From Neocallimastix sp. 'constans' (taxonomy: Eukaryota): a stretch of 64,000 nucleotides of DNA. Positions 6,051 through 62,147 of the stretch are shown here, piece after piece; position 1 is the first letter of the stretch, and every line of letters starts with the position of its first letter. A model generated the notes under the pieces. That model was given only the letters and a program-made list of their open reading frames with translations, did no database searches and was not told where the DNA came from. The position numbers were made by a program, and so were the translations under genes. The stretch is taken from positions 62,001 to 126,000 of the forward strand of contig JBODTK010000106.1 of assembly GCA_050613775.1 (NCBI GenBank). Reading direction: 5' to 3'.

Positions 6051-6054
<4 letters not shown>

Positions 6055-6096
<42 letters not shown>

Positions 6097-9000
6097 CTTA
6101 GAGAAAACTTTATTTAATTTATAATAATAATAATAAAATTACATGAAATTAAATGAAAAAATAACAAATAAAATACATGAAATAAAATATTATATATTAT
6201 AAAATTATAAAAGTGCGTTAGAAGCAATAGCCTCTAACTTTTCCCATTCCTCGATAATAACACCACGTCCATTATTGTGAGTAATAATTTCAGTATTAGT
6301 GTTATCAATCGAATCTGTATCTGGAGGTGAAAATCCATGCCTTATCATTTCGACGTCGACGCTCTTGGTAACGGTAGATTCAACGGAATACCATTTCATC
6401 ATCAAACTAAAAGATCGACAAATTAATGGTATTACGTTTGTTAGAAACTCCGCAATCCCCACAAAATACGGAACTGTTGACGAAGTTGAACTTTGTTTAA
6501 AAATATTGTCAACTAATTGTCTTTGTTCCCCATCATTAACTTTAATTTTTGAATATATTGAACGCCCACCAAGAAGTGCACTCAATATATAATAATAAAT
6601 ATTATTATCATAATCCTTTTCTGAATCTAAAGACACATCCAAGGATTTTTGTTCAATTATCAATGCAAACTTCAAAAAGAGATCATCTAGAAAAGGTAAA
6701 GATTTATTTCTGTAATTTTCCAATTCTTTACAGGCAAAGATCCAGTGAGAAAAGCTAGGTACACTAACACCACAACAAGGGCAACATTTAGGGCAATCTT
6801 CTGAGACGATTTTTCTTTTAATGGAAATACTAATGTCGAATTTAAAACCACACCTAATACGAGAAATCCAAAAGAATCCCAACTGATACTTAGGATATTG
6901 AAATGTTAAGTTTCTGATTTCTGAAATAAATCCAAAATCATTCTCCTTGTAAATAATTGCTTTTTTAGCTTTTGAGGGTTTGAAGACATCTCTTTCCCAA
7001 TAAAACTTTTTTATTTCACTTGTTTTTTTACCATTTAATTTCTTATCCAATTCACGAGTAATATTATAGAGACTAACAGAAGAATTGCGAGATTTAAATC
7101 CGTAACTCCAATAAAGTCCTCTATTAATAATTTTTTGAGCTTTAGAACATCTGCTCTTATTTGAACCAAAGAGAGGAGCATAATATATAACAAGACTAAG
7201 AATAAACGAAATTAAAACATATTTCTTCAATGGGAGAGGAACAGATTTATTAATAAGAAATCGAAAGTACAAATTTAACTTGACATTTAAATTACTGTTT
7301 AATTTGGATTGTATAGGTTTCAGTGATAAAGATTCATCAAAAGGAATACCAAGATAGGTATAGTTGTCAGTTTTAGGTAATTTTTTACTACCAATAAAGA
7401 AAGATGGATCTTCATAATTTATCGATTTAACAAAGTTAATCGGTTTTAAAACAAGAGTAGCACACTTATTAATTCCAAAAGTCATTTCATTTTTAATAGC
7501 CCATTCATGAACTTTATTCAAAATTTTCTTAAGAGCTTGTTTAGATGGAGCAACTAAAACAATATCATCCGCAAAAAGTCCACCACAACAATATTGAGAA
7601 TCTAAATATACACCATACTTATCACAATTATCCAGTATATCATTAATGAACAAATTGAATAAAATAGGAGATAGAGGGCATCCTTGTCTAACACCACGAT
7701 TAATCGAAAATTCTTCTGAGAGATTACCATTAAAAAAAGCACGAGCTTTAGAGGATAGATAAAGATTCTTTAAAAACAGATGACATTTATCTCTAATTCC
7801 TAAGTTATATAATTTGGTCAAAATATTAAAGATAGGAACTGAATCATAGGCTTTTTTAAGATCGAGAAAAGCAAGATAAGTAAAATTTCCTTTAAATTTT
7901 CTTCTTTGACATATCTCTCTAATTGAAATATACAAACTTATGCATTCTTCTTTATTTCTAAATCCAAATTGTTCAGGTCTAACAAATTTATGTTCAAGGG
8001 CATATTTAGCAATTCTATTAGTAACAATCTTCGAAATAATTTTTAAGCCAACATTAATAAGAGAAATACCACGATAATTATTACAATCCGAAAGATCTCC
8101 TTTTTTTGGAATTGATATTATAGAAGCCGAATTCCACTCTTCAGGGAAATCACCATCCCAGATTTTGTTAAATAATGAAAGTAAACATTTAGCACACTTA
8201 GAGTAGTGATCATCTGAAGAATCATCTTGATTATCGGATAAATCAGATTTACTAAAGAAGGCTTTAAAAAATTCAATCGGAATACCATCGGGTCCAGGAG
8301 CTTTATTATTTTTCATTTCAAGCACAGTGTTTTGAATTTCTTCCATAGTAATAGAATCATTAATATCCCAAGTAAGATTATTATTAGGATTAGTTCCAAA
8401 TAAACTTACCCAGTATTCATTATCCAAACTGTGTTGAGTAACATCAGAAGCTAGTTCACTGTAATGTTCAGCAAATCGATTTAATTGATCCGAATGAGAA
8501 AATAAAAAGTTACCCTGCTTGTCCTTTAAAACACTTGACGAAATAGAATTAGAGTACATAGGGCGAGATAGCTTCTTTAATTTTAACCAAGCACTCCTAG
8601 CATTTTTATTACTAAAATCATTACATGCAGATTCTATTGACTGATGAAATTGTTTTGATTTAATAGAAAACTTAATTGACCTGACTTTACCACATATATT
8701 TTTATACTCACGAAGCAAATTTAAAAATTCATCAAGGTTTTCAAGATTAGAACCTAAAGAAAAATTTTTGATTTCATTAAATGCAACATGCTTTTCATGA
8801 GAAAGTTTCTTGATATAATAAGGGCAGTGGAAAGCTGATCCTTTAAGATCACAAGGAACTCTAGCATGAACTTTATCACCAACTTTATTAGCTGTTTCTA
8901 TAAATTTATTGACAATTTCATTAGAACTTAATTCTTTATTATCATCAAATTCATTAAGAAGAATTGAGAAGTAGTTACTTGAGAATATTTCATTATGCTT

Positions 9001-11109
9001 TTCATTACACATGCGTTGGGACCACTTGAATCTTCTAGAAGGAGTAGGAGCACGAAAACCTTCTGAGTCATCTTTCTTACAGGAAAGGATAAGAGGGAAG
9101 TGGTCAGATATATCATTGAATGTACTACAAACAGATACCTTATTAATGTATTCCTTCATTTTACAATTAAATAAAACATGATCAATACAAGACGATCTAC
9201 CATCCCGAGCCCATGTGAAATCGAGACCTGATAAGTATTTAGTGAACCACTGATAAGATGATTTATTAAGTAAACTATCTAATTGGGATTTAGACATATT
9301 AAAGTCACCTACAAGAATAGAAGGTGTATTAGTATGTTTCTTTATCCAATTAGTAATTTCTGAAAAGGCATTCTTTCTTTCTTCCTTATGAGTGACCGTA
9401 GGAACATAAATATTACCAATAGTGCATTTAATTCCCCAAAAAGAAGTAATGTTGACAGAAATGATATACTTATATTCAAAGGGATCAGGAGAAAATGAAC
9501 ATGAACGATGTACACTTATACTAAGACCTCTCATACCGGGTATATTTGGATCAGCTTTACGTAAAATTGTATTATAGTGACAAAGAAATGGGTAATTATT
9601 TGAATGTGCATTAAGGTATTGGCTATTACCGACCTCTTGCAAGCAAATACAGATGGGTTTAAAAATTTCATTAAAGTATCTAATACCATCACGTTTTTCA
9701 TCATTCCATCCATTAATATTCCAACTGACACAAAGATTAAAGAACTGAGTAGACGGTGAATAAATATTACTGTAAAGAAAATCTTTAGCCATTGATTTAG
9801 TTTCAAAAGAAGAAAATTTGTTGTTAAATTTCTTAACTTCACTGAAAGTTCTGATTTTGTCGGTTTGGATCCAATTAATTTTATTGATTGGAAGGCAATG
9901 GGTAAGAAGAAATAAAATATTTAGGTAATAAGTGGGTTTATCATAGTTTATCCTTAAAATGAAGTAATTTTCCATATTAGGTGTGTGTGTTTTTATAATT
10001 CCATGAACTATTTCATTGCAATTGGAAATACGTTTACTAAGAAATTCCCAAAGTTTACTAACAGACCATGATTGAAGATCATGAATAAAGATAAGAATGA
10101 AATCTTTATTCTGAATATCGTATCTTCGAAGACCACGTCGCAAAACAGGTATAGTTGCTGAATTTGAAGAAGTATTATCCATATCAAGAAAGCCTAAAAA
10201 ATAAAATAAAAGAAGAATAAAATAAAAATAATAAAAATAATAAAAAAATAGATAAAAAAATTTTTTTTTTTTTTTTTTTATATATATATATGTAATAAAA
10301 TAAATTAAAAAATAAAAGAGAAAGTAAATTCTCTTTAAATAGTAAAAAAAAAAAAATATTGGTGTTGAATATTTGAAAGCTTGAAATATAAAATTGTTCT
10401 TGATGATTGAATAGATTTTAGATTTTGTAAATAATTGATTTTATCCTGTATAACTGATATAATATTTATAAATTTACTCAAGGGTTAGTAATTTATTGAT
10501 ACAAAATTACTTGTATATACTGTAAAAATGAATAATTGTTTCTTTTTATCTTTTGAATGATTGTAATTCTTTCAATTAATAAAGCGCTTTAAGATGTTAA
10601 AAATTTTCTGTTGAATAATCATAAATTAGCTAAAAGTATATTTAAAAAGAAAAAATATTAGTAGAGAAAGACTATAAAAAAGATTCCCATCCGTTAAATA
10701 ATGTCTTAAACACAAGCTTTGGAGTGAATCAATCTCCTACATTTCCATTTTACAATAGCTACATGAAAGTATAAATAATACTATAGAAAAATACATATAC
10801 AAAATAATGCTAAAGTAAAAAATACAATAGATTCATTACAATGATAATATGTAGAAACTACATGATATTATTAATTATACAACTCCAATGTTACTACATA
10901 TCCAGTTTAAAACAATATAAAACATCAGGTTCACTTTCTACAGTCTTCCAGTATTCCAGTTTTCACTCTTCGTACTAGAAGCCACTTTAGAAAGGATAAC
11001 CATCGATTATCATCAGAATCACAGAAAGCTGTAATTAGTACACCTGATATAGGTTATTCCTTTTCCATCAACCCTCCATGGACCTGGAAAAACAGTCCAC
11101 ATCACTGGG
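6055..11109 (-). mobile_element. Full-length non-LTR retrotransposon (LINE) with single APE-RT ORF, poly(A) tail and 16-bp TSD
   Basis: T-run 6054-6093 is the poly(A) tail. Direct repeat GAAGCAATAAATAAAT lies at 6039-6054 and 11110-11125. About 930-nt 5' leader with no ORF of 60 aa or more. Confidence 0.92.
6205..10182 (-). CDS. LINE ORF: AP-endonuclease, reverse transcriptase and C-terminal CCHC knuckle (1325 aa)
   Basis: APE motifs SWNING, CLQE, GDFN, IDH, SDH. RT motifs KAPGPDG, YRGISL, QFGFR, LDLKKAYDSV, GVRQGCPLSPILFN, FADD, YLG. C-terminal CPCC..HWIFAC. Confidence 0.95.
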   Translation of the reverse strand: MDNTSSNSATIPVLRRGLRRYDIQNKDFILIFIHDLQSWSVSKLWEFLSKRISNCNEIVHGIIKTHTPNMENYFILRINYDKPTYYLNILFLLTHCLPINKINWIQTDKIRTFSEVKKFNNKFSSFETKSMAKDFLYSNIYSPSTQFFNLCVSWNINGWNDEKRDGIRYFNEIFKPICICLQEVGNSQYLNAHSNNYPFLCHYNTILRKADPNIPGMRGLSISVHRSCSFSPDPFEYKYIISVNITSFWGIKCTIGNIYVPTVTHKEERKNAFSEITNWIKKHTNTPSILVGDFNMSKSQLDSLLNKSSYQWFTKYLSGLDFTWARDGRSSCIDHVLFNCKMKEYINKVSVCSTFNDISDHFPLILSCKKDDSEGFRAPTPSRRFKWSQRMCNEKHNEIFSSNYFSILLNEFDDNKELSSNEIVNKFIETANKVGDKVHARVPCDLKGSAFHCPYYIKKLSHEKHVAFNEIKNFSLGSNLENLDEFLNLLREYKNICGKVRSIKFSIKSKQFHQSIESACNDFSNKNARSAWLKLKKLSRPMYSNSISSSVLKDKQGNFLFSHSDQLNRFAEHYSELASDVTQHSLDNEYWVSLFGTNPNNNLTWDINDSITMEEIQNTVLEMKNNKAPGPDGIPIEFFKAFFSKSDLSDNQDDSSDDHYSKCAKCLLSLFNKIWDGDFPEEWNSASIISIPKKGDLSDCNNYRGISLINVGLKIISKIVTNRIAKYALEHKFVRPEQFGFRNKEECISLYISIREICQRRKFKGNFTYLAFLDLKKAYDSVPIFNILTKLYNLGIRDKCHLFLKNLYLSSKARAFFNGNLSEEFSINRGVRQGCPLSPILFNLFINDILDNCDKYGVYLDSQYCCGGLFADDIVLVAPSKQALKKILNKVHEWAIKNEMTFGINKCATLVLKPINFVKSINYEDPSFFIGSKKLPKTDNYTYLGIPFDESLSLKPIQSKLNSNLNVKLNLYFRFLINKSVPLPLKKYVLISFILSLVIYYAPLFGSNKSRCSKAQKIINRGLYWSYGFKSRNSSVSLYNITRELDKKLNGKKTSEIKKFYWERDVFKPSKAKKAIIYKENDFGFISEIRNLTFQYPKYQLGFFWISRIRCGFKFDISISIKRKIVSEDCPKCCPCCGVSVPSFSHWIFACKELENYRNKSLPFLDDLFLKFALIIEQKSLDVSLDSEKDYDNNIYYYILSALLGGRSIYSKIKVNDGEQRQLVDNIFKQSSTSSTVPYFVGIAEFLTNVIPLICRSFSLMMKWYSVESTVTKSVDVEMIRHGFSPPDTDSIDNTNTEIITHNNGRGVIIEEWEKLEAIASNALL

Positions 11110-19032: not shown

Positions 19033-19291
19033 TGTTAGAATACAAAGAAAAATATATTAAATTTATATTAAAATAATTTATGTGTATTAAATAAATTAAA
19101 AGATATTTTTATAATACAACGAACTCGTTGTTAAGCTAATACAATGAAATATATTATGTAATAATTTCTCGTTATATTTTTATTTAGCCACAAATAGTAT
19201 AAATACAAATGTAATCTTATAAATTTTAAAAATCAAGTAATTACTCATATTAAAATAAATAAACTTTAATCAATAAAATATTTTATAAACA
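19033..19291 (+). repeat. Copia 5' LTR
   Basis: TGTTAG...AAACA, repeated at 25329-25586. Confidence 0.93.
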
Positions 19292-19293
19292 AA

Positions 19294-19314
19294 AGATTAA
19301 GAGTCTCATCCTCT
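19294..19314 (+). promoter_or_regulatory. Primer-binding site complementary to the anticodon/D-arm region of tRNA-Lys(CUU)
   Basis: AGATTAAGAGTCTCATCCTCT is the reverse complement of AGAG(C)ATGAGACTCTTAATCT, the conserved eukaryotic tRNA-Lys(CUU) sequence as recalled (one mismatch). Confidence 0.75.
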
Positions 19315-19329
19315 TATACTATCTACGAC

Positions 19330-22300
19330 ATGTCTAACGAAACCAAATTAAGAACTGAAGATATTCTCAATAAGGATAACTTCGAAAACTGGGAATTCCT
19401 TATTAAAAACATTCTCAAATCTTTAAAAATTTTACAGTATGTAAATGAGAATGTAATCGGTAAATTAAATGATAAGCTTAAGGAGGAAAAGGGAAAACCC
19501 AAATCCGACGAAACCGTCAAAGCTATCAAGGACTTGGAAAAGGATATCAAAGAAGCTGAAACTCAAGATGCCTTAGCCAGTACCATTATCAGTAAAAATG
19601 TAAGTCAAGAAGTTTTGAGCTACATAAGATATCTTACCACCGCCTATGATATTATGGAAAAATTAAAGGTCTTATATGGAAAAAAGAAAACTGCTGATCT
19701 CAACTACTGGTTGAAGAAGTTATATTCTTTAAAAGCCAAAAATCTTTCGGAATGCAAGGATATCATTAATCAAATTAAAGAAATCTTTGAAGTAATGGAT
19801 AAGAACAATATCAGACTCGGAACTTGGGAAAAGATCAGGGTTTTATATTTGTCTTATCCAAAAGTTTTAAGAGACCTTATTCATCCTAGTGGAACAGAAA
19901 CAGTTGATGACTTCCTCGAAGAGTCAATCAACAAGATTAATTTCCACATTTTCCTGCATAGTGCTATCAATTTCGATAGAAGCGTCACAGATAAAGGTGA
20001 CTTCATGGATATTGATAACATTGAGTCAAGCGGTTCAAAAAATAATAAAACCAGACCAAGTCCGGAGCCAAACTATTGTTACCTGTGCAAAATGTTTGGA
20101 CATACTACCGATGAATGTAGATTTAACCTTATCAACAAAAACAGGAACAGATCGACTCAAAAAGGCAAGAAGCAATCAAACAAAAAGAAAACTAAAATCA
20201 ATAAAAGGAAAGGTAAAAATAGCCACCAAAAATCAATTGCAAACGTCGAATATGAAGAACGAAATTCTGATGAAGAACTTTCCTTAGAAGAACTTAGGAC
20301 CATGTATGATAAAAATTTAGACAGCTTTGAGCCGTTAGAAGAAAAAAAGAACACTAAAGAAAACTACGAAAATAAATGCATTTCTTTAGTATTAAATTCT
20401 TCAGAAGATACAACGATTTGGACCTTTGATACTGGTGCTTCAGTGCACATTACCAATAACAAAGATATCCTCTCAAACTTTAGAGAAGAAAAGATCTCTA
20501 TGCAGTGTGCAAATAATTCAATCTGTGAGTTTGACGGGGTTGGTACCTATGAAGGAAGTATTAATGGTTACAACATAAAATTCGAAAATGTCCTCTATTC
20601 TAAACAAGTTAACAAGAATCTTCTGAGTGGAATTAAACTTGCGAAGAATGGATTAAAAAGTAACATTAAATCCAGGAGAGACAAAGTTTTTCTCACTTTA
20701 AAAACCACACTTGAAAACAAAAGAACAATTAACATAGGCACATTTAAAGCTAATAAAAACAATACAATTCATATACTTACGAAGAATAAATCGAATTTAA
20801 AGAATTGTATTGACATCGTTTCACCTGAAGAAACAATGGACATAAATGACCAGTCTAAAATGCTATGGCATAGAAGACTTGGACATTTTTATCAAGACAA
20901 TTTAACTAAATATCTAAAACTCCACAATGTCAAAATTAATGAATGCTTAAATTGTAAAATTGCCAAATTAAATAGGAAACCCCATAATGGAGACACTCCA
21001 AAGGCAAAGCATTCACTAGATGTAATCCATTCTGATGTTATCGGTCCTATTTCAAAATCATACTCAGGGAAAAGGTATGTTCTTACTTTTATTGACGAAT
21101 ATACTCGCAAAAGTTGGATCTTCCTCTTGGAAAACAAATCAGAAGTTCCAAGAACAATTATAAATTTCTTTACTTACTTAAATAATCAATTATATTATAA
21201 TATTAAAACTTTTCGTTCGGATCAAGGTACTGAATATAACAATAAAAAGGTACTAAACTACTGCAAGGAACACGGTATAATAAAAACATTTTCACCACCA
21301 TACAATCCTCAAAACAACGGGATTGCTGAACGATTCAACTACACCATTGTAAGTTGTGCAAAAACTTTAATTCAGTGGAGCAAAATGTCTAGTGAGTTTT
21401 GGGATTACGCTATCAAATATGCAAATTTACTTTATAACATAACTCCACATAAAGGAATTGGAAATAAAATTCCAAATGAAATCTATTATAACATAAAGAT
21501 CAGTCTTAAATATATTAAAGTTTTTGGTTGTGATGCCTACTATAAAGATTTTTCACAAGGAAAAATGAAATTTGATAGCAACAGTAAAAAGGGCGTATTT
21601 TTAGGAATAAGCATTGAATCCAATTACTATATAATTATGGATTCAAAGGACTACAGTATTCACTTAGTAAGAGAAGCAGTATTTGATGAAGAAACTCCAT
21701 CAAATTTAACAACCAAGATACGCAACAATAAATTACCAACCAACATTTTCAATAACGACAATTATATTTACGAATTACCAATTATCAACTCTAACGAAAA
21801 TGAAAATACATACGATGATTCTGGAAAATTGATATACAATGAAGAATCTAATGAAGAATCTAATGAAGAATCTAATGAAGAATCTAATGAAGAAAATACA
21901 GAATCCAAAGAAAATAATTCTTCATCAAGAAAAGGTAAGGAATCAGAAATTGATTCACCTGTTTCATCTATTAAAAACAATTATATTAATAAAATTATAA
22001 ATACTCCTATTACTAACAACAAGAAAGATGAGAATAATAACTCTGCTAAAGGTAAGGAACCTGAAGACAATTATCTAAATGATGAAAAAATTGAATCCAT
22101 TGATGATCTCGCTTCAGATTTCCAATCTATTAGTGTTTCAAATGATGAATCAAATTTCTCTGGGGACATTTCTTTAGAAAAGGATAAAATAAAATTTAAT
22201 CCATCCACTAAAAGAAAGTCATCAACTTGTAATATTTCACCTACCAAAAAGAAGATTAACTTAAACAATGAAATATTAAACACTGTTCCCCTTAAACATA

Positions 22301-22506
22301 AATTGATTCATTCCGAACATCCAGAGAGTAAGAAATTAAGACCATCCATGAATGAATCGCATAAAAGACCTGGAAACCCTATTCAATCAGTAACAAAAAG
22401 CACAAGATCTCCCTCGACAATGTTGAAACTTCTAAAAGATGTATTACTGAAACACCTCTTTCATATAAACAAGCCATCACGCGTTCAGATAAAATTCGGT
22501 GGATAG
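19330..22506 (+). CDS. Copia gag-protease-integrase ORF
   Basis: CCHC knuckle CYLCKMFGHTTDEC, protease WTFDTGAS, GAG-pre-integrase LWHRRLGH, integrase HSDV..FRSDQGTEY..PQNNGIAER, FGC..KGVFLG. Confidence 0.93.
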   Translation: MSNETKLRTEDILNKDNFENWEFLIKNILKSLKILQYVNENVIGKLNDKLKEEKGKPKSDETVKAIKDLEKDIKEAETQDALASTIISKNVSQEVLSYIRYLTTAYDIMEKLKVLYGKKKTADLNYWLKKLYSLKAKNLSECKDIINQIKEIFEVMDKNNIRLGTWEKIRVLYLSYPKVLRDLIHPSGTETVDDFLEESINKINFHIFLHSAINFDRSVTDKGDFMDIDNIESSGSKNNKTRPSPEPNYCYLCKMFGHTTDECRFNLINKNRNRSTQKGKKQSNKKKTKINKRKGKNSHQKSIANVEYEERNSDEELSLEELRTMYDKNLDSFEPLEEKKNTKENYENKCISLVLNSSEDTTIWTFDTGASVHITNNKDILSNFREEKISMQCANNSICEFDGVGTYEGSINGYNIKFENVLYSKQVNKNLLSGIKLAKNGLKSNIKSRRDKVFLTLKTTLENKRTINIGTFKANKNNTIHILTKNKSNLKNCIDIVSPEETMDINDQSKMLWHRRLGHFYQDNLTKYLKLHNVKINECLNCKIAKLNRKPHNGDTPKAKHSLDVIHSDVIGPISKSYSGKRYVLTFIDEYTRKSWIFLLENKSEVPRTIINFFTYLNNQLYYNIKTFRSDQGTEYNNKKVLNYCKEHGIIKTFSPPYNPQNNGIAERFNYTIVSCAKTLIQWSKMSSEFWDYAIKYANLLYNITPHKGIGNKIPNEIYYNIKISLKYIKVFGCDAYYKDFSQGKMKFDSNSKKGVFLGISIESNYYIIMDSKDYSIHLVREAVFDEETPSNLTTKIRNNKLPTNIFNNDNYIYELPIINSNENENTYDDSGKLIYNEESNEESNEESNEESNEENTESKENNSSSRKGKESEIDSPVSSIKNNYINKIINTPITNNKKDENNNSAKGKEPEDNYLNDEKIESIDDLASDFQSISVSNDESNFSGDISLEKDKIKFNPSTKRKSSTCNISPTKKKINLNNEILNTVPLKHKLIHSEHPESKKLRPSMNESHKRPGNPIQSVTKSTRSPSTMLKLLKDVLLKHLFHINKPSRVQIKFGG

Positions 22507-23245
22507 AAGCTATGAATTCCGAATTACAAAACTTCTATGACAACCGAACCATGATTTTTGTTAAATCGCTTCCTCCTGATGTTAAACCCATAACTACTAA
22601 GTGGGTCTATATTCTAAAAAAGGACGGTAATGGTAATATCTCAAAATACAAGGCTCGTCTGGTTGCTCGTGGTTTCACCCAGAGAAAGGGAATTGATTAT
22701 AACTTAACATATTCTCCTACCCTTAGTTTAGATAGTCTAAAACTTATAATTGCGCTTGCTTCAAAATTCAATTGGGATCTAATGCAGCTTGATATTAAAG
22801 CTGCCTATCTTAATGCTCCGTTGGATAAGGATATTTATGTTAATATCCCCCCTGGTGACAAGAATTTTGGTAAAGGTTATTAGCTTCTTAGAAAAGCTTT
22901 ATACGGATTAAAACAGTCAGGTCGCCAATGGCACATCCACTTCACAAACTTTCTCAAAAATAATGGTTTCACTCAATTGACATCTGAACCATGTATTTTT
23001 GTTAAAATGGAGGGAGGAAGAGCTGTCTGTATTATTGGAGTTTACGTGGATGACTTATTAATAACAGGAATAAAATACTATATAAATAAAATTATTAAAA
23101 GAATTAAGAAAAACTTTAAAGTTTCAAAATGCAGTGAAGCGGATTATATTTTAGGAATTAATATTGAAAAGGAAAATACAAGCTACGTAATTTCTCAAAT
23201 TCAATTAATAAATGATATATTACAAAAATTCAAAGTTTGTAATGA

Positions 23246-23322
23246 AACCTATTAGTCTAGTGGTTAATAGTTGGAGCTCAGTACAAGATGTCACTGGTTC
23301 GACTCCATCTATTACACTTTTT
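23246..23322 (+). ncRNA. tRNA-like Pol III unit in U3 of the 5' LTR
   Basis: A box TAGTCTAGTGG 23253-23263, B box GGTTCGACTCC 23296-23306 at tRNA-like spacing, T5 run at 23318-23322. Cloverleaf stems are degenerate. Confidence 0.7.
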
Positions 23323-24207
23323 GTTTATTGAAAATATTATTTTGTTAAATTTTATTATAAATTATTTTACCAATCAAATTATTAGTTTTGATTTTATTTT
23401 GATATAAAAACATGTAGTTTAAAATTAGTTTAATAATTTCGAGGTTTCATTAACATTAAACATTAAATAAATAAATAAATAAATAAATATCTTGATAAAA
23501 TAAATGATTTGTTAAATAATATTTTAATATTTAAAGTGTTTTTCAATATTTTACATTTATTTGTTTATTTAAGTTAATACACCAACCTGGTGATTAACCT
23601 AAATCGTTACAATGAAACCTCCCTAAAGCAACTAAGTCACCACCTTGGTGTATTTTGGCTCGTTTTAGTAAACTTTAACTAACTCTATTTATATAATTTC
23701 TTTATATAATATATATTCATATATTTAGATATAACTCTGAAAAACACTTTCTTTGGTCAGTGCTTCTGTAATCCTTATCCGACGTTCTATGTTTTCTGTT
23801 ACACCTGATTCTCAGTTCTAGAATGTTCGTTCCATCAAGAAACTAACCCATCCATCAAGGAAAAATCACTTTCTACCAGTTGGAACCCTTTAGCTCATAT
23901 TTTCTCAACGTTTTATGGAAATTTTTGATCTTCTCGGAAACAAGCCCTTCTCCGCGCATCTTTGCTTCTACCACTATTTCTGCCACTGACTTCTGACTTA
24001 TGGCTAAATCAACCACGAATCCACTAGTTGTAATTTCTCCCAGTCTCTGCTGCTGGTTACCTCTAAACTCGCTGTAATTTCTCCCAGATATACTTCCTGG
24101 TTAGCACTTTTATTCTGTGTAATTTCTCCCAGTTTTCATTGCTGGTTACTTAGTTATTAACCTTAGAACGTCTGGAATCCGTTCCTTGGAGGAGAGCGTT
24201 GTAATGA

Positions 24208-24284
24208 AACCTATTAGTCTAGTGGTTAATAGTTGGAGCTCAGTACAAGATGTCACTGGTTCGACTCCATCTATTACACTTTTT
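24208..24284 (+). ncRNA. tRNA-like Pol III unit in U3 of the 3' LTR (second copy)
   Basis: Same sequence offset by 962 bp. Confidence 0.7.
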
Positions 24285-25328
24285 GTTTATTGAAAATATT
24301 ATTTTGTTAAATTTTATTATAAATTATTTTACCAATCAAATTATTAGTTTTGATTTTATTTTGATATAAAAACATGTAGTTTAAAATTAGTTTAATAATT
24401 TCGAGGTTTCATTAACATTAAACATTAAATAAATAAATAAATAAATAAATATCTTGATAAAATAAATGATTTGTTAAATAATATTTTAATATTTAAAGTG
24501 TTTTTCAATATTTTACATTTATTTGTTTATTTAAGTTAATACACCAACCTGGTGATTAACCTAAATCGTTACAAAGTTAAAAATATAAGAAAGTCAAAAA
24601 CGCCTTGTTCAAGCATCTCAAATTCAGCAAAGAATAATGAACCATTCGATAAAACAACATTTAAAAGTGCAATCTGATCGTTAATCTATCTAGCCAGGTG
24701 TACCCGTCCAGATATTACTTACGCTGTAGGAAAGATTGCTAGAAATTCTGAGAATCCTACCATAGCTGATTGGAAAATGGTAATAAATATATTAAAATAC
24801 TTAAATTATACTAAATACTACAAAATTAAATATAAAGGACAGGGGGAAATTATGGCATATACTGATGCTGACTACGCTGGTGACCCAAAAGATAGGAAAT
24901 CTACTTCGGGGTATATAATATCAATGAATAATGATCCAATATGTTGGCAATCCAAGAAACAAACAGTAATTGCCACATCTACCGCGGAAGCTGAATACAT
25001 TGCTACCGCTGAATGTACTAAAAAGGTTTTATGGATCCGAAATATTTTATATGAAATATTCAACATTAAAAAACCAATAAAAATATTCACTGATAACTTA
25101 GCAAGTAAAACGACAATAGAAAACGGTGAACTCAACAATAAATTAAAACATATAGAAATAAAATTTTACTTCAATAAAGATAATATCAAAAATAACAGAA
25201 TAAAATTAGAATACATCAATACCGAAAGGATGTTGGCCGATCCATTAACAAAAGATTTTAATGGACCAAAAATGACTAAGTTTACAAACCAAATCTTTGA
25301 CAAGCAAACATTCTGGTCTGAGGGGGAA

Positions 25329-25586
25329 TGTTAGAATACAAAGAAAAATATATTAAATTTATATTAAAATAATTTATGTGTATTAAATAAATTAAAAGAT
25401 ATTTTTATAATACAACGAACTCGTTGTTAAGCTAATACAATGAAATATATTATGTAATAATTTCTCGTTATATTTTTATTTAGCCACAAATAGTATAAAT
25501 ACAAATGTAATCTCATAAATTTTAAAAATCAAGTAATTACTCATATTAAATAAATAAACTTTAATCAATAAAATATTTTATAAACA
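25329..25586 (+). repeat. Copia 3' LTR
   Basis: Follows the PPT and matches the 5' LTR. Confidence 0.93.
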
Positions 25587-55013: not shown

Positions 55014-57353
55014 TATTCAAAATACAATATCAACAATGTTTATAAAGATAATTATTTTTTATTTTATTTTATTGTTTATATTTATAAAAAGAAAAACATT
55101 TTAATTGAGAATCTTTATAAAAATCATTATAAATAAAAGTAATTAAATATATGTAAATTATTAATATTTTCTTGTTTATTCCATTTTTTAATTCTATTTC
55201 TAAAATTATTTTTTATTTTATTTTATTTTATTTTATTTCATTTCATCTTATGATAATTATTTATTATGTTTCTATTTAATATTTATTGAGATAATTCAAT
55301 ATTTTAAAACTAACAAAAATATAATGAAAAATGACACTAATAAAAATTCACAATTCAAAATTATACTAATAATTTAGGATTATATTAAAAAGGATTATTA
55401 AATAGTATTCAAACATTATAATTAAAGTTATTAATAAAAATAGTAATCACTGATAAAAAATGTATTGATAAAAAATGACACTAAAAAAATGTTTATTTAA
55501 ATATATATAAAGAAATTTATATATTTCAGTAAATTGGACTTACGTATTTATATATATATATATTAAAATTTTTTTAATTTTATTTAAATATTAATAAATA
55601 ATAATAATACAAACTAATTTTTTTTTTATTTTTTAAAAGTTTTTATCTATTTTATATTTATTATTTATTTTTTATCTATTTTGATTAATTTAAATATATA
55701 TATATATATTGCATTATAATTTATTATATTGCAAAATCTTATACAATAAATTTGTAGAATTTGAATATATTTATAGTGATTATGTGATTATATATAATAA
55801 AAAGACGACAGAGTATTACAACTTTATTTTATTTATGTGAAAGTATAAAATTAAAGTTTATTTTATATATAAATTTATATTATATTTTATTGAATTCATC
55901 TATACACCCTAATAAATTATATATATATTGTTATACTTCACCTAAGCAAATATATTATTTGATTTATACAAGTTGAAATATTATATTTATTATATTTATT
56001 TATAATGATTTAAAAATATTTTAATATAAATATATTATAAAGCATTAAACAAAAAAAAATAAAATACATAAAATATAAAAAATGTGTAAAAATTATAAAA
56101 TATATAAAATATAAAATGTATATGTATTATCATTAAAGTTAAACTGTTATTTAAAGCGGTTTAACAATACTATTTATTCAATTTATTCTAAATATATTTA
56201 TATATTTATATATTATTCATATTATAATTATAAATTTAATATGTTTATATTAATATACAAATCCTTAATAAATTATTTTATTTGAACTATTTTCAAAATT
56301 AATATAAAAATAGCTTTTTTTCAATAATTTTTTTTTTTTATTTTCTTTATATTATTAAATGTAAAAGGATTATGGATGATTTTCATTTCAAAGTAGATAT
56401 AAACAATTTGAATAGATTATAATTTATATTATGTTGTTGATACATTAAGAAATTGAAAAAAAAAAGAAATATTTTGAGTTTCAATAATTATATGCTATAT
56501 CATATGATTTATATAGAAAAAATTTAAATGTAATTATTTTTTTTTCATTTAATCTTTATATTGAAATTTCACATTATTATTAAATATAGATTATTTTATT
56601 TATTAATTTTTTTTTTTTTAATAGAAAAATCATAAAGTACCACAAACTTTTGAAATAAATTAAATTTTAAATAAATAATTAAAATTGATTAACTAAAATA
56701 ACAATAGAAAACAAAATAATAGTATATATATATATATATTTAATTTTTTTTAAAGTAAGAAAATATATAGATTTTTAAACAATTAATTTTGCTTTAAAAA
56801 TTTCAAATATATTAGCTACATACAAAATTTTAATTTTATAAACAAGCAATATTAAAAAATTATATTAAAAATTCAAAAAAAAATCAAATCCTTAAAAATT
56901 AATAAGTATAAGAAAAGTTATATAGAATTTTATGTATTATATGTAAATATTTATTAATACAGGTGTTTTATTTACTTTTCTTTTTTAGAAATAAAATTGA
57001 TAATAATAATAATAATAATAATAGTAATAATTAAAAAGAAAACAATAAACTTTCAAATAATATATTTCATCAAAAAGAAAAAAAAGAAAAATTTTTTTAT
57101 AATTCAATTTTTATTTTTTTTTATATTATTATAAAATTTTCATAAAATATAAAAATCCTGTATCAATAATTATAAACCTGGCTGTTTATTACATCAAGAA
57201 AAAAGATATAATTCCGTTTAAGTAATATTATCATATTTTAATAACTATGATAATGACAATAATGGTATATTAAATTTGATAATATAAAAAAATTTTATAA
57301 TAAATAATACAAAAATTGCAAATTCAAACAATAATAATTTAAGTAATAATCTC

Positions 57354-60300
57354 ATGGATAATAATTATAAAAACGGTTATTTTGTCACTAATGACAACAG
57401 TAATTTGGAATATTATAATTCTAAATTTAATTTTAATCATTCACGGGAACAAGATATAAATTCAAACGAATCTATTGAAATACCGTCATCTTCTAAAAAG
57501 TTCAATATTTACTTTGTAGATGACAATAAAAAATCAAATCAATCAAGTAATTTACAAAAACCACGTGTACGATTTAGTTTTAATGATGATTCAAATATAT
57601 TTGATAATGATAATGATAACAATAATATATTATATCGAAATAAAATAAAAAATAGAAAAATAAATCCAAACGGAGTGAATTCAATTTCAATATCAAATAT
57701 TAACTCTTATGATGATCCTTCATATTTTGAATATTTTGGAGGAAAAATTAAAAAATCTTCCATAAATACAAAGAATAATTATTTTAAATGTCAAAACAAT
57801 AATTATTTATCTTCTTCTTCTTCCTCATCCTCATCTTCATTTAGTTCTAATAATAAAGTGAATAGACTATTAAACAATAATTATATAAAATCTTACTCTC
57901 CACAAGAAAATTCATTTCATCTAACTAATAAATCATATAAAATATTATTAAATGGCAATGATAATTCATTCATTAACCAAACTGAAGATAATAGAAATAA
58001 TAAAATTTCAAATCATCATAAAAATTTTGTTAATACAAAAATAAAAAATATTGAAAGTAATTTAATAACAGGTAATTATTCAAGAAATGACAAGGAGAAT
58101 AATTTAGTTATTGATACTATAAATTATGAAGAAAATAATGAAAATAAAAGATATGATGAAAAAAATAAAAACCAAAATTATTTAAGTTCTAGTTCAGATA
58201 TTGAATCACCAATAAGTAGTTCTTCTAATTCAAATAGTCTAATAAATACTGAATATTCTGGAAATACTGAAAGTGAATCCTTAATAAGGTTAGAAAAGAT
58301 ATTAAATTATAAATTACCTCGTTTAACAAATTTTAATGAATTAAAATTAAAATATAACATTGAAGATAAAAATGATATTAATGAAATTGATAAACGTTCT
58401 TCTGATTCTTCAAATAAAAATATGAAAAAGTCAATTCCAAATAAATATAATCATTATATACATCATGAAGAAAGAATAGAAGAAGATTACCTTATGAAGA
58501 GTTTAAAGAAGAATACGAATAACAAAAAATCAGAAATAATTATTACTCAAGCACTTTCTAATCATAATAGATATTATACTAATTCATTGAGTTTTAAAAG
58601 TTTAAGTTCAAATTCTGATAGTTCAAATTCTGATAACTTGGATTCACAAAGTAAAAATAGTAATAGCTCTATAGTAGAAAATATTGAACAAAAGAAAATT
58701 AGAACCATAAATTTTAAAAATAACAAAAAAATAAATAAAATTATTCCAAATGATCATTATAATTATGAATCTTATTATAATGATAAATACTATAATAGAT
58801 CAGAAAGTGATGAATCTTCAGTTATCTCTTCAAAATATCATTACACGAAAAGTTATGAAAATGATAATATTCAAATTAATACTAAAAGGGAAAATGAAAA
58901 TAAGAATAAATTAATTAGAATACCAAATAATGAATCAAGTTCAAATAATTTGACCTCAAATTCTTCTTTTTCTTCTTATTATAGTAACAAGCAAGATTTA
59001 GTTGTTAAAGAAAAACAATCATTATCACCTGCCCTGGTTAAATATTTCAATACAAAATTAAAATCAAACAATAGTTCAAATTCTAAGAGTAGTAAAATTT
59101 CAAAAAATGGTTATTATCTATCGAATAATAATGAATTTTATCTTGATCCAAAAGATAATAGTAATAATAATAATAATAATATTAATAAAGTTGATAAAAA
59201 ATTATATAAAACTATTAAAAAATATTTAGATAAAAATAAACATGGTAATAAAGATGTCGTTATGATTATACTTAATGATAAATCATTGGAAGGAAATAAT
59301 TTCAGTTATAGTAGAAGAAGTAGTAGTTCTAGTACTTCAAGTTCAAGTAGTTTCATTGGTAAGAAATATAAAAAGAAATGTAAAAAGAGAAAACATCATC
59401 ATCATAAAAAAAGTAAATATTCAAGTGAGAAAGCCAAAAATGATGATAAACAATCCAGAAATACAAATAAATCCAAATCAAATAAAAAGAAAAACAAGAA
59501 AGAAGGTAGTAAAAAATCAAAAGATAAAGCAAAAGGTCATCATAATCTAAAAGATAAAAAAGATAAAATAGAAAGTGCTCTTAATAATGTTGAAAATAAT
59601 AATATTAATCATAGAATTGATCATAATAATAATAATGATAATAATGATAGTAATAAAAGTAATGTTAATAATAATAATAGCAATCATTCAGAAACAAAAA
59701 ATATGAAAGAAAGTGATTTAAGGCCATCTATTATTGTTAATTCGTCAACCTCCCTTCTGTCATTTGCTGATTTTTCAAGTGTTAAACATGAAGAAATTCC
59801 AAAAATAATAATTGAAGAGGTTTCAAATTCTAGAAATGAAATTGAAAATACAAATTTTGAGACGAAGATGAATCAAGAAGAATATTCAAATCCATATATT
59901 ATTGAAAATATTCCAAGATCCATAGTTAATATGGAAAATTCGTATAATGAAAGTTATTCTTCGAATCAATCATCCACCAAAAAAGAAGAAACATCTTTTA
60001 TTATTTCTGAAGAAAAAGTACCCGAATTAAAAATTACATCACCAATCATTAATCCAATTGAAATAAGATCAAGAGAAATAAATGAACCTCCATTACTATC
60101 ACCAAAAATGGATAATATCGATATAATAGAACCAATTGAAATTAAAGAAAGAGAAATTCCAATTATAGAATTAACTCTTCAAAGTAATGAAAATATTAAT
60201 AATTCTAATATTAATATAGATTCCGAAAATAAAATTGTTGAAAATAGTTCATTATTATTATCTTTAAACGATGAAGCTTCTCCACCAAAATTAAAAGATC

Positions 60301-62147
60301 TAATTATAGAAGTCAATGAGTCTTCTTCAGAAGCAGAAATTTCAAATCCAGATGATATAAATTCTTCTCATTCCACTGGTTTTTTCAAAAATAATAAAAA
60401 TTTAATCGAAAATATATCATCTCTTCCATCATTAAGGGATATTGATGTAAGTCATATTATGACATCATCAGTTCCTTCTTGTACAAATATTATCATTGAT
60501 GAAGATAATGACTATTTATCTGATGAAATTATTACTGAAAGTGATAGTATTAATATGAGTAAATCATTAGTGTTAGATTATGTTAATACTAAGCCAAAGG
60601 AAATTTCTTTTATTAATGAAGAATCTAAGCCTAGTGAGGCCTATACCCCATCTGTAATTAAGAATAAACAGATTCTTTCAAAAGAAGAACCTAAATCGTC
60701 TATTGAAAGTACAGAAGCCACAAAAGTTAATTCCAGTTTAGATACTATTGGTGGTAATAATTCAAATGTTTTATTGAAAAAATTAAGTACTATTGAAGAA
60801 ATTATGACTGAAAGTCCAGGTGATACTATTATTGAAAATTATCAAGTTCAAACTGATATGATAAAGATACCAGAACAGTCATTATCCAAAGAAGAAAAAG
60901 AGAAAGAAAAAGAAAAAAAAAAAGAAAAAGTTAAAATTTCACTTGAAAATGAATCAACAATTAATAATAACAAGACTATTTATAATGATTCTATGAAAAA
61001 TATTGATTCAACAGAACCTGTGATGAATAAATCTTTAAATAATAATACAACCTTTGTTTTTTCTCTTTCTACTATTCCTCTTATAATACAACATACTAAT
61101 AATGAAGAGATTGAAGATAAAAATGTAGGTATTTATGGAAGTAAAAGTGAAGATAAAAGTGAAAGTGAAAATGAAAGTGAAGGCGAAAATATAAATAAGA
61201 ATAAAAATGAAAATGAAAATGAAAATAATGAAAATTGTTCAAAAGAATCAATAGAAAAATCATCATTATCAAATAAAAATAATACTATACAAAGTGTCTC
61301 AAAAAAAATAAAATTAGATGATAATATCATAAGAACAAGTGATTCAATTCTACTTCCTTCAGTTATCGCTACATCAAATTCACTTCAATCGAAACCACAA
61401 TTTCATGGTCAAGGCCCAATTGAATTTATTAGATCACCTTCACCAATTAGACAAATCGGATCACCAATTACAAGAACTAAATCACCTACACCAATAGAGT
61501 CAAGACCTTTAAGTCCAACACCAAGAATTATTTCACCTTATATTCATGAAAGACAATCCTTTAAACCAGAATTTGAAAGAAGTAATAGAAGAATAGATAT
61601 TAGTAAATTTATTTCTAGTATTAGAAGTAGGGAAGAAAGTCTTAAAGCAAAAGAAAATGAATTTTTGAAAATAATTGATGAAGAAACAGAAAAGAATAGA
61701 GTTCAAAAGGATATGATTCGAAAGACTTCAGATGAATTAGATGATAAAATAAAAGAAGTGCGTCAATTAGCTCGTGAAGTCTCCAAACATAAAAGGATTC
61801 TTTTAGAACAAAAAGAAGCAAATAATTTATTACAAGAAGAATTAGAAGAAGAAAAGAAACAAGCTTTATATTTACAACAACAATTAGATTCTCAGTATGA
61901 ATTAAATTCTAAACAAGAGCAAGAAATTTCTTACTTTAAAGAAATTCATAACATGTATTTAGAAGAAAATCAAAGACTTCAAGCTCTTCTTATGAAGTTA
62001 ACTAATACGAAATCTATTCAAAGAATTTCACCCATTTCTATGCCTTCATTAACTCTACCACCACCTACTTCTCCTTCAATATCCGTCACTTCTTCACCGA
62101 AAAACACCATACTTTCTCCTGTCTCCTCTGTCAATACATTAATATAA
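57354..62147 (+). CDS. Hypothetical 1597-aa low-complexity (N/S/K/E-rich) protein with C-terminal coiled coil
   Basis: A 4.8-kb uninterrupted ORF in very AT-rich DNA. It has a basic K/H tract, SP-rich repeats and a heptad-like E/K/Q/L segment near the C-terminus. No family recognised. Confidence 0.75.
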   Translation: MDNNYKNGYFVTNDNSNLEYYNSKFNFNHSREQDINSNESIEIPSSSKKFNIYFVDDNKKSNQSSNLQKPRVRFSFNDDSNIFDNDNDNNNILYRNKIKNRKINPNGVNSISISNINSYDDPSYFEYFGGKIKKSSINTKNNYFKCQNNNYLSSSSSSSSSSFSSNNKVNRLLNNNYIKSYSPQENSFHLTNKSYKILLNGNDNSFINQTEDNRNNKISNHHKNFVNTKIKNIESNLITGNYSRNDKENNLVIDTINYEENNENKRYDEKNKNQNYLSSSSDIESPISSSSNSNSLINTEYSGNTESESLIRLEKILNYKLPRLTNFNELKLKYNIEDKNDINEIDKRSSDSSNKNMKKSIPNKYNHYIHHEERIEEDYLMKSLKKNTNNKKSEIIITQALSNHNRYYTNSLSFKSLSSNSDSSNSDNLDSQSKNSNSSIVENIEQKKIRTINFKNNKKINKIIPNDHYNYESYYNDKYYNRSESDESSVISSKYHYTKSYENDNIQINTKRENENKNKLIRIPNNESSSNNLTSNSSFSSYYSNKQDLVVKEKQSLSPALVKYFNTKLKSNNSSNSKSSKISKNGYYLSNNNEFYLDPKDNSNNNNNNINKVDKKLYKTIKKYLDKNKHGNKDVVMIILNDKSLEGNNFSYSRRSSSSSTSSSSSFIGKKYKKKCKKRKHHHHKKSKYSSEKAKNDDKQSRNTNKSKSNKKKNKKEGSKKSKDKAKGHHNLKDKKDKIESALNNVENNNINHRIDHNNNNDNNDSNKSNVNNNNSNHSETKNMKESDLRPSIIVNSSTSLLSFADFSSVKHEEIPKIIIEEVSNSRNEIENTNFETKMNQEEYSNPYIIENIPRSIVNMENSYNESYSSNQSSTKKEETSFIISEEKVPELKITSPIINPIEIRSREINEPPLLSPKMDNIDIIEPIEIKEREIPIIELTLQSNENINNSNINIDSENKIVENSSLLLSLNDEASPPKLKDLIIEVNESSSEAEISNPDDINSSHSTGFFKNNKNLIENISSLPSLRDIDVSHIMTSSVPSCTNIIIDEDNDYLSDEIITESDSINMSKSLVLDYVNTKPKEISFINEESKPSEAYTPSVIKNKQILSKEEPKSSIESTEATKVNSSLDTIGGNNSNVLLKKLSTIEEIMTESPGDTIIENYQVQTDMIKIPEQSLSKEEKEKEKEKKKEKVKISLENESTINNNKTIYNDSMKNIDSTEPVMNKSLNNNTTFVFSLSTIPLIIQHTNNEEIEDKNVGIYGSKSEDKSESENESEGENINKNKNENENENNENCSKESIEKSSLSNKNNTIQSVSKKIKLDDNIIRTSDSILLPSVIATSNSLQSKPQFHGQGPIEFIRSPSPIRQIGSPITRTKSPTPIESRPLSPTPRIISPYIHERQSFKPEFERSNRRIDISKFISSIRSREESLKAKENEFLKIIDEETEKNRVQKDMIRKTSDELDDKIKEVRQLAREVSKHKRILLEQKEANNLLQEELEEEKKQALYLQQQLDSQYELNSKQEQEISYFKEIHNMYLEENQRLQALLMKLTNTKSIQRISPISMPSLTLPPPTSPSISVTSSPKNTILSPVSSVNTLI

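What the first reader, a model, noticed from the sequence alone, without database searches (positions are those of the whole stretch)
23246..23322. tRNA-derived Pol III promoter cassette built into both LTRs (tRNA analogue of the Cassandra 5S insert)
Seen: TAGTCTAGTGG (A box) and GGTTCGACTCC (B box) sit 45 nt apart between the T8 and T54 equivalents, as in a tRNA gene. A short TGG/CCA T-stem and a TTTTT terminator follow, all starting about 8 nt inside the LTR. Acceptor and anticodon stems are eroded while the promoter boxes are consensus. Known: plant Cassandra TRIMs carry 5S rRNA Pol III promoters in their LTRs, and TFIIIC-bound B boxes can act as insulators and as targeting signals for Ty1/Ty3. 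Inference: the cassette could make a ~75-nt RNA, shield the LTR promoter from silencing, or attract further insertions.
Basis: partly seen in the sequence, partly recalled or inferred. Interest (0 to 1): 0.85.

Follow-up and report, generated by a model that had tools for sequence, protein, structure and literature searches.

The report
Self-priming mini-retrotransposon with tRNA relic
A 1.3-kb gene-less jumping element, in what is likely an anaerobic gut fungus, carries a decayed tRNA copy with intact polymerase III promoter boxes at the outer edge of each terminal repeat; such elements were described in 2024 (Helenus), but this one is predicted to prime its own copying and likely does not use the tRNA promoter to make its replicating RNA.

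Summary
The A box (23253-63), B box (23296-306), T8-T54 spacing of 45 nt and T5 run (23318-22) are there. The box pair arose in 0 of 20,000 LTR shuffles. A sequence-only tRNA profile scores it at E=1.5e-5; the stems are decayed, so it is not a tRNA gene. It lies 8 nt inside the identical 374-bp LTRs of a 1,336-bp non-coding TRIM (AAGTT target duplication) that interrupts a Copia RT in a Piromyces-like fungus. The 'tRNA analogue of Cassandra' is already named: Helenus/TRIMp3 (PMC10886601). What differs: a host lineage absent from that paper's lists, slightly larger size, the cassette at the extreme U3 edge, and a PBS that pairs over 11 nt with the LTR itself (fold z=-6.6), as in Tf1/sushi self-priming. 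The replicating RNA therefore likely starts about 195 nt downstream of the cassette, from Pol II. The cassette is most likely an accessory TFIIIC/Pol III site or a passenger. No family copies or RNA data could be obtained, so box conservation and transcription are untested. Verdict: new variant of a known kind, modest interest.

The parts
23233..23237 (+). left target-site duplication AAGTT
   Evidence: an identical Copia contig stops matching exactly at 23237 (X15 record 7)
23238..23611 (+). 5' LTR of the TRIM, 374 bp, TGTAA...TTACA ends
   Evidence: 374 of 374 identical to the 3' LTR
23240..23250 (+). U3 start, 11 nt complementary to 23442-23452 (the self-primer region); unexplained
   Evidence: (39 of 20,000 shuffles reach 11 nt anywhere in the LTR)
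23246..23317 (+). decayed tRNA-like cassette, 40% GC against 12% in the rest of U3
23253..23263 (+). A box TAGTCTAGTGG
23296..23306 (+). B box GGTTCGACTCC
23318..23322 (+). T5 run, candidate Pol III terminator
   Evidence: function inferred
23403..23408 (+). TATA-like TATAAA, 38 nt before the inferred RNA start (weak: AT-rich, another at 23356)
23441..23451 (+). predicted self-primer GAGGTTTCATT, the inferred 5' end of the genomic RNA
23463..23572 (+). predicted long R-U5 hairpin holding the AATAAA cluster (23466-23487) and bringing the primer to the PBS
23612..23621 (+). primer-binding site ATGAAACCTC, complementary to the LTR (11 nt with the last LTR base), without the TGG start of a tRNA 3'-end PBS
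23612..24199 (+). 588-bp non-coding internal region with three TAATTTCTCCCAG repeats (24031, 24075, 24120)
   Evidence: no unusual folding overall (z=-0.2)
24188..24196 (+). polypurine tract GGAGGAGAG
   Evidence: read
24200..24573 (+). 3' LTR with the second cassette copy (24208-24279; A box 24215, B box 24258, T5 24280)
24574..24578 (+). right target-site duplication AAGTT
19033..25586 (+). host Ty1/Copia element whose RT the TRIM interrupts (context, not part of the TRIM)

Best explanation
This is a gene-less LTR retrotransposon with identical LTRs that is predicted to prime its own reverse transcription and is likely transcribed by Pol II from about 23441, while the decayed tRNA copy at the outer edge of each LTR likely serves as an accessory TFIIIC/Pol III site that would make at most a 75-85-nt RNA. 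Shown: element bounds, target duplication, identical LTRs, tRNA-like sequence with intact boxes and broken stems, 11-nt PBS-LTR complementarity. Inferred: (1) the RNA starts at the primer, 38 nt after a TATA-like box, and ends in the 3' LTR near the AATAAA cluster; (2) R-U5 folds into a long hairpin that brings the 5' end onto the PBS, and the helper's RT/RNase H cuts it to give the primer, as in Tf1; (3) the helper is a Tf1/sushi-type Ty3/gypsy element, not the surrounding Copia; (4) the cassette entered U3 once as a SINE or pre-tRNA copy and is re-made at both ends each cycle; (5) TFIIIC bound about 150 nt upstream of the Pol II promoter keeps it open against silencing.
For: Structure. tRNA likeness beyond chance: 17.3 bits, next 9.1; 21.4 bits, next 6.3. 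Self-priming: 10 nt of PBS start at the LTR edge, meeting the criterion of PMC6317226 (at least 10 bp within 0-5 bp of the LTR; passages); 7 of 20,000 LTR shuffles reach 11 nt; leader fold z=-6.63, 0 of 200 shuffles; pairing probability about 0.99 for 9 of 11 pairs in the full 1,020- and 1,040-nt RNA. The host Copia has other LTR ends and a half-tRNA-Lys PBS. Three T5 runs lie between the cassette and the 3' LTR. tRNA genes and B-box sites act as TFIIIC-dependent heterochromatin barriers (PMC12409998 passages). A 40% GC island with full boxes persists in a 12% GC U3.
Against: Only one insertion was seen, so selection on the boxes within the LTR is not shown; a SINE donor would already have intact boxes and broken stems. 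No RNA start, Pol III product or TFIIIC binding was observed. No helper element was found. The TATA and AATAAA motifs are weak in AT-rich DNA. The barrier role is borrowed from yeast and mammalian work. Self-priming is also predicted for the plant Copia TAR lineage, so a gypsy helper is not certain. Three of the 19 tRNAs in the models were fetched with a pattern like the cassette's own boxes, which inflates the scores somewhat.
Confidence: 0.5

Rival explanations
1. The cassette is a neutral passenger: a SINE head or pre-tRNA copied once into U3 of a self-priming TRIM and carried along, with no function.
For: The element has a complete Pol II-type, self-priming layout without the cassette. SINE heads already show intact boxes with broken stems; Kojima proposes SINE insertion as the origin of Helenus. 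No second family member was available to show conservation.
Against: Identical LTRs show the cassette went through a very recent replication cycle intact. Both boxes match the strict consensus. A similar 5'-edge placement is seen by eye in the unrelated ctenophore family Helenus-1_MLe, which hints at recurrence.
Confidence: 0.28
2. Cassandra/TRIMp3 model: Pol III starts at the cassette of the 5' LTR and reads through to make the replicating RNA.
For: This is the model proposed for Helenus (PMC10886601). T runs follow the cassette in many Helenus LTRs too (by eye). Pol III read-through of several terminators over hundreds of bases is reported (10.1101/2025.10.17.683076 passages).
Against: The RNA would have to cross T5 runs at 23318, 23539, 23922 and 24280 plus many T4 runs. 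It would have to extend beyond about 24414 to give strong-stop DNA a landing site, so about 1.2 kb. The primer would lie 195 nt inside the RNA, while Tf1/Tj1 primers are the mRNA 5' segment.
Confidence: 0.1
3. The cassette makes a short Pol III RNA whose 5' leader (UAAUGAAACCU) is antisense to the self-primer and damps priming of this family or its helper in trans.
For: The LTR's first 13 nt pair with the primer (-14.3 kcal/mol against -16.4 for the PBS). An 11-nt match is reached by 39 of 20,000 shuffles even when allowed anywhere in the LTR. The simple in-cis explanation was not supported: shuffling this stretch left primer-PBS pairing unchanged.
Against: It needs a Pol III start at or before about 23240; an RNA starting at 23246 has only 5 nt of the match. 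The PBS pairing is intramolecular and stronger. In the full RNA the stretch pairs with the 3' copy of the primer sequence (p about 0.98), which may be its real role in strand transfer. No RNA evidence.
Confidence: 0.08
4. The cassette is a docking site for Pol III-targeting integrases (Ty3/Tj1 type), steering new copies to the edge of old LTRs.
For: Tj1, a self-priming element, inserts 5-11 bp upstream of mature tRNA 5' ends (PMC4600332 passages), and this LTR's edge is 8 bp upstream of position 1.
Against: This copy sits inside a Copia RT with no tRNA gene in the 64-kb window, and nothing has inserted at either cassette.
Confidence: 0.04

Closest known systems
Helenus (TRIMp3 with tRNA-derived LTR sequence), Kojima 2024, PMC10886601
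   Same: Non-coding LTR element with PPT; tRNA-like sequence in the LTR with boxes kept and cloverleaf lost; 5-bp target duplication as in fungal families; T run after the cassette, as in many listed LTRs (by eye).
   Different: Host lineage not in Table S1 (fungi there are Pucciniales and Agaricomycetes). 1,336 bp and 374-bp LTR exceed the listed maxima (1,263 and 323). Fungal Helenus use tRNA primers and Copia helpers; here the PBS matches the LTR. The cassette is at the LTR 5' edge with about 290 nt after it; in the fungal LTRs I read (Data S1 parts 1, 5) it lies near the 3' end. 'self-prim' has 0 occurrences in the paper.
Helenus-1_MLe of Mnemiopsis leidyi (same paper, Data S1)
   Same: By eye only: cassette at the very start of a 266-bp LTR, a PBS that does not begin with TGG, and an 8-nt complement of it in the 3' part of the LTR.
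   Different: Ctenophore host; no shared motif found; the 8-nt match is below the 10-nt criterion and the paper's text gives no primer for it. Likely convergent.
Cassandra TRIM (plants; 5S rRNA-derived Pol III promoter)
   Same: A Pol III internal promoter from a small-RNA gene carried in both LTRs of a TRIM.
   Different: 5S type (boxes A and C) and a tRNA-Met PBS (PMC7215508 passages). Its Pol III transcript runs from the 5' to the 3' LTR, which is unlikely here.
Tf1/sushi-group self-priming chromoviruses (Tf1, Tj1, plant Tcn1)
   Same: PBS complementary to a segment of the element's own LTR, directly at the LTR edge; structured leader.
   Different: Those are autonomous, protein-coding elements. 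The passages I read describe no tRNA-like cassette in their LTRs.

Membership tests
Helenus / TRIMp3 | non-coding element with two LTRs, PBS and PPT | tested here: met
   LTR-588 bp-LTR, stops in all six frames, GGAGGAGAG before the 3' LTR
Helenus / TRIMp3 | tRNA-derived sequence inside the LTR | tested here: met
   Rfam and default ARAGORN negative, so decayed
Helenus / TRIMp3 | box A TRGCY..YGG and box B GGTTC (most families) | tested here: inconclusive
   GGTTC and TGG met; TAGTC departs from TRGCY at one base, as some listed fungal LTRs also do (by eye)
Helenus / TRIMp3 | 5-bp target-site duplication (fungal families) | tested here: met
   AAGTT on both sides
Helenus / TRIMp3 | size 311-1,263 bp (first screen under 1,000 bp) | tested here: not met
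   1,336 bp
Helenus / TRIMp3 | PBS complementary to a host tRNA (3' end or anticodon loop) | tested here: not met
   PBS lacks the TGG start and matches the LTR over 11 nt; host tRNAs were not available, so a half-tRNA match is not formally excluded
Helenus / TRIMp3 | boxes conserved across family copies | not testable with these tools
   no genome held; no relatives found
Helenus / TRIMp3 | Pol III makes the template RNA (proposed for Helenus, shown for Cassandra) | not testable with these tools
   no raw RNA reads among the runs offered; anatomy argues against
Cassandra | 5S rRNA-derived boxes A and C in the LTR | tested here: not met
   no 5S match in Rfam at E<=10; boxes are tRNA-type
Tf1/sushi self-priming group | PBS of at least 10 nt, within 0-5 bp of the LTR, complementary to the 5' LTR | tested here: met
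   10 nt starting at the first internal base; criterion from PMC6317226
Tf1/sushi self-priming group | primer equals the RNA 5' end and is cleaved by RT/RNase H | not testable with these tools
   needs 5' RACE and particle assays
Tf1/sushi self-priming group | chromoviral RT/integrase phylogeny | not testable with these tools
   element encodes no protein; no helper found
functional tRNA gene | paired cloverleaf with canonical anticodon loop | tested here: not met
   (z=-1.19, not a cloverleaf)

The most novel reading that the evidence does not exclude
A self-priming retrotransposon has captured a Pol III gene at its LTR edge so that every LTR end, solo LTRs included, emits a short RNA antisense to the family's self-primer: a built-in, trans-acting brake on reverse transcription, with the TFIIIC site also shielding the Pol II promoter. 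This would be a separate class of tRNA-bearing TRIM in which Pol III regulates the genome RNA instead of making it.
Probability: 0.08. Interest if true: 0.75.

Novelty: new variant of a known kind. Interest (0 to 1): 0.36.

Why it matters
The TRIMp3 model assumes, without experiment for Helenus, that the captured tRNA promoter makes the element's replicating RNA. This element separates the two: the self-primer marks the likely RNA start about 195 nt downstream of the cassette and its T run. One 5' RACE plus a B-box mutant would show whether such cassettes are promoters for the genome RNA, chromatin barriers or passengers. It also extends tRNA-bearing TRIMs to anaerobic gut fungi and warns that such LTRs can give false tRNA calls at relaxed thresholds.

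Tried and rejected
Family copies were not found. No whole genome is held. The metagenome scan with the LTR-end/PBS junction gave 6 loci, all chance 19-21-nt matches in 45-56% GC DNA. Viral scans gave 3 loci with real tRNA genes and then 0 and 0. Prokaryote genomes gave 0. Host-Copia RNase H scans confirmed 0 of 9 and 0 of 74 candidates. Sequencing runs: 20 of 24 listed runs were said to hold 0.86-0.93 of the words, but in the 4 laid on the LTR and its left flank no contig of 95% or better covered the LTR. A 45-nt match with 8 differences over the B-box half in X1 and X16 could not be read further and is not used. Minus-strand orientation was rejected: the PPT-like tract and PBS-LTR match fit the plus strand. 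The idea that the U3 start protects the PBS from the 3' primer copy was not supported: 6 of 6 shuffles left primer-PBS pairing at 0.92-0.93, as in the native sequence. The host Copia as helper was rejected (different LTR ends and PBS). The weak Rfam hits (snoZ5, mir-359 and others, E>=1.3) are chance. The bacterial promoter scan is irrelevant for this host. Navaratna et al. 2024 on LTR elements of anaerobic fungi is cited in PMC13728883 but is not held; I saw only the citation, and it may describe this family.

Full report
Observation. A loose A+B pattern was met by 0 of 20,000 dinucleotide shuffles of the LTR and 6 of 10,000 of LTR plus internal region, and hits nowhere else in the window but the second LTR. 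I built two models from 19 of the 23 tRNA genes ARAGORN called in three viral loci, leaving out 4 longer ones. The sequence-only model scores the cassette 21.4 bits (E=1.5e-5, next hit 6.3), the structural model 17.3 bits (E=0.01, next 9.1). Three of the 19 tRNAs were fetched with a cassette-like pattern, so the scores lean high. Rfam and default ARAGORN are negative, the stems pair 0/7, 2/4, 2/5 and 3/5, and the 85-nt stretch does not fold as a cloverleaf (z=-1.19). It is a decayed tRNA-like sequence with intact promoter boxes. I could not assign an isotype.

Context. The host is AT-rich, and the best named relatives of a window gene are from Piromyces (91% and 77%), so it is most likely an anaerobic gut fungus. 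The cassette belongs to a 1,336-bp element, 23238-24573, with identical 374-bp LTRs, an AAGTT duplication and a 588-bp interior with stops in all six frames. It interrupts the RT of a Copia element at 19033-25586. One public contig identical to the Copia stops matching at the last base of the left duplication, and a related Copia contig runs on into letters resembling the right flank (about 21 of 30 by eye), consistent with an empty site. Identical LTRs mean a recent insertion and make the two cassettes a single observation.

How the element likely replicates. The first 10 internal bases plus the last LTR base are complementary to 23441-23451 in the LTR; 7 of 20,000 shuffles reach 11 nt. This meets the self-primer criterion of PMC6317226 (passages). 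An RNA starting at 23441 folds at z=-6.63 (0 of 200 shuffles), with a long R-U5 hairpin that brings its 5' end onto the PBS, and the helix persists in the full-length RNA (p about 0.99 for 9 of 11 pairs). A TATA-like box lies 38 nt upstream and AATAAA repeats downstream, both weak in AT-rich DNA. This is the Tf1/Tj1 arrangement (PMC4600332 passages). I infer a Pol II RNA from about 23441 and a self-priming helper, most likely Ty3/gypsy. The host Copia is not the helper: its PBS matches the anticodon arm of a tRNA-Lys(CTT) over 13 nt. No RNA start was observed.

What the cassette does. It sits in U3, about 195 nt upstream of the inferred start. A Pol III RNA from it meets T5 at once, and a full template would have to cross four T5 runs and many T4 runs. 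Read-through exists (10.1101/2025.10.17.683076 passages), so this is unlikely, not excluded. I therefore favour an accessory TFIIIC/Pol III site, since tRNA genes and B-box sites act as heterochromatin barriers (PMC12409998 passages), at 0.5. A neutral SINE or pre-tRNA passenger comes second at 0.28, because the conservation test could not be run: there is no genome and every search for copies failed. One feature is unexplained. The LTR's bases 3-13 are also complementary to the primer region (39 of 20,000 shuffles) and pair with the 3' primer copy in the full RNA. Shuffling them did not change primer-PBS pairing. If Pol III starts at the LTR edge, the short RNA would be antisense to the primer (-14.3 kcal/mol); this is the novel case, at 0.08.

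Comparison with what is known. This element meets that core definition and the 5-bp duplication, but fails the size range and the tRNA-primed PBS, so I file it as a Helenus-like variant, not a member. Six anaerobic-fungus genus names have 0 hits in the supplement, three motifs from this element have 0 hits, and 'self-prim' has 0 hits in the text. By eye, the ctenophore family Helenus-1_MLe has the same layout, with the cassette at the LTR start and an 8-nt PBS-LTR complement, so even the arrangement may have a precedent among listed families. T runs after the cassette are common in listed Helenus LTRs (by eye, not counted). Searches for 'TRIMp3', self-primed TRIMs and anaerobic-fungus LTR elements showed no listing that describes this family; I saw those results as listings only. 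Navaratna et al. 2024 is not held and may bear on it. Earlier notes of this scan report Helenus-like TRIMs in other genomes, one of them self-primed; these are unchecked AI notes and count as leads only.

Verdict. Real feature, known kind, new host lineage and a different priming and promoter layout. New variant of a known kind; interest 0.36.

Noticed in passing
window 19292-19307: The host Copia's PBS is complementary to the anticodon arm of tRNA-Lys(CTT) (13 nt match to the L001 tRNA-Lys), i.e. a half-tRNA-Lys primer. The papers read list half-tRNA Met, Ile, Tyr and Asp primers, not Lys.
   Followed up: partly
window 19033-25586: Host Copia LTRs differ by one substitution and one indel in 259 bp; gag-pol changes frame near 22400-22500, RT has a stop at 22881 and another at about 24675; no clean target duplication seen.
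   Followed up: partly
window 23238-23455: U3 plus the first bases of R is bounded by a near-perfect 13/14-bp inverted repeat with TG...CA ends; it may be an ancestral LTR or MITE-like unit.
   Followed up: partly
window 24031-24160: Three TAATTTCTCCCAG repeats, each followed by CTGGTTA, about 44 nt apart just before the PPT; possible packaging hairpins.
   Followed up: no
window 6052-10440 (-): LINE with an open 1,411-codon endonuclease-RT frame and a long poly(A) tail; a possible mobiliser of SINEs in this genome.
   Followed up: no
window 57288-62147 (+): 1,619-codon open frame with no Pfam match.
   Followed up: no
PMC10886601 Data S1, Helenus-1_MLe: By eye, this ctenophore family has its cassette at the LTR start and an 8-nt PBS-LTR complement, so it may be self-priming; the paper's text does not say so.
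   Followed up: partly
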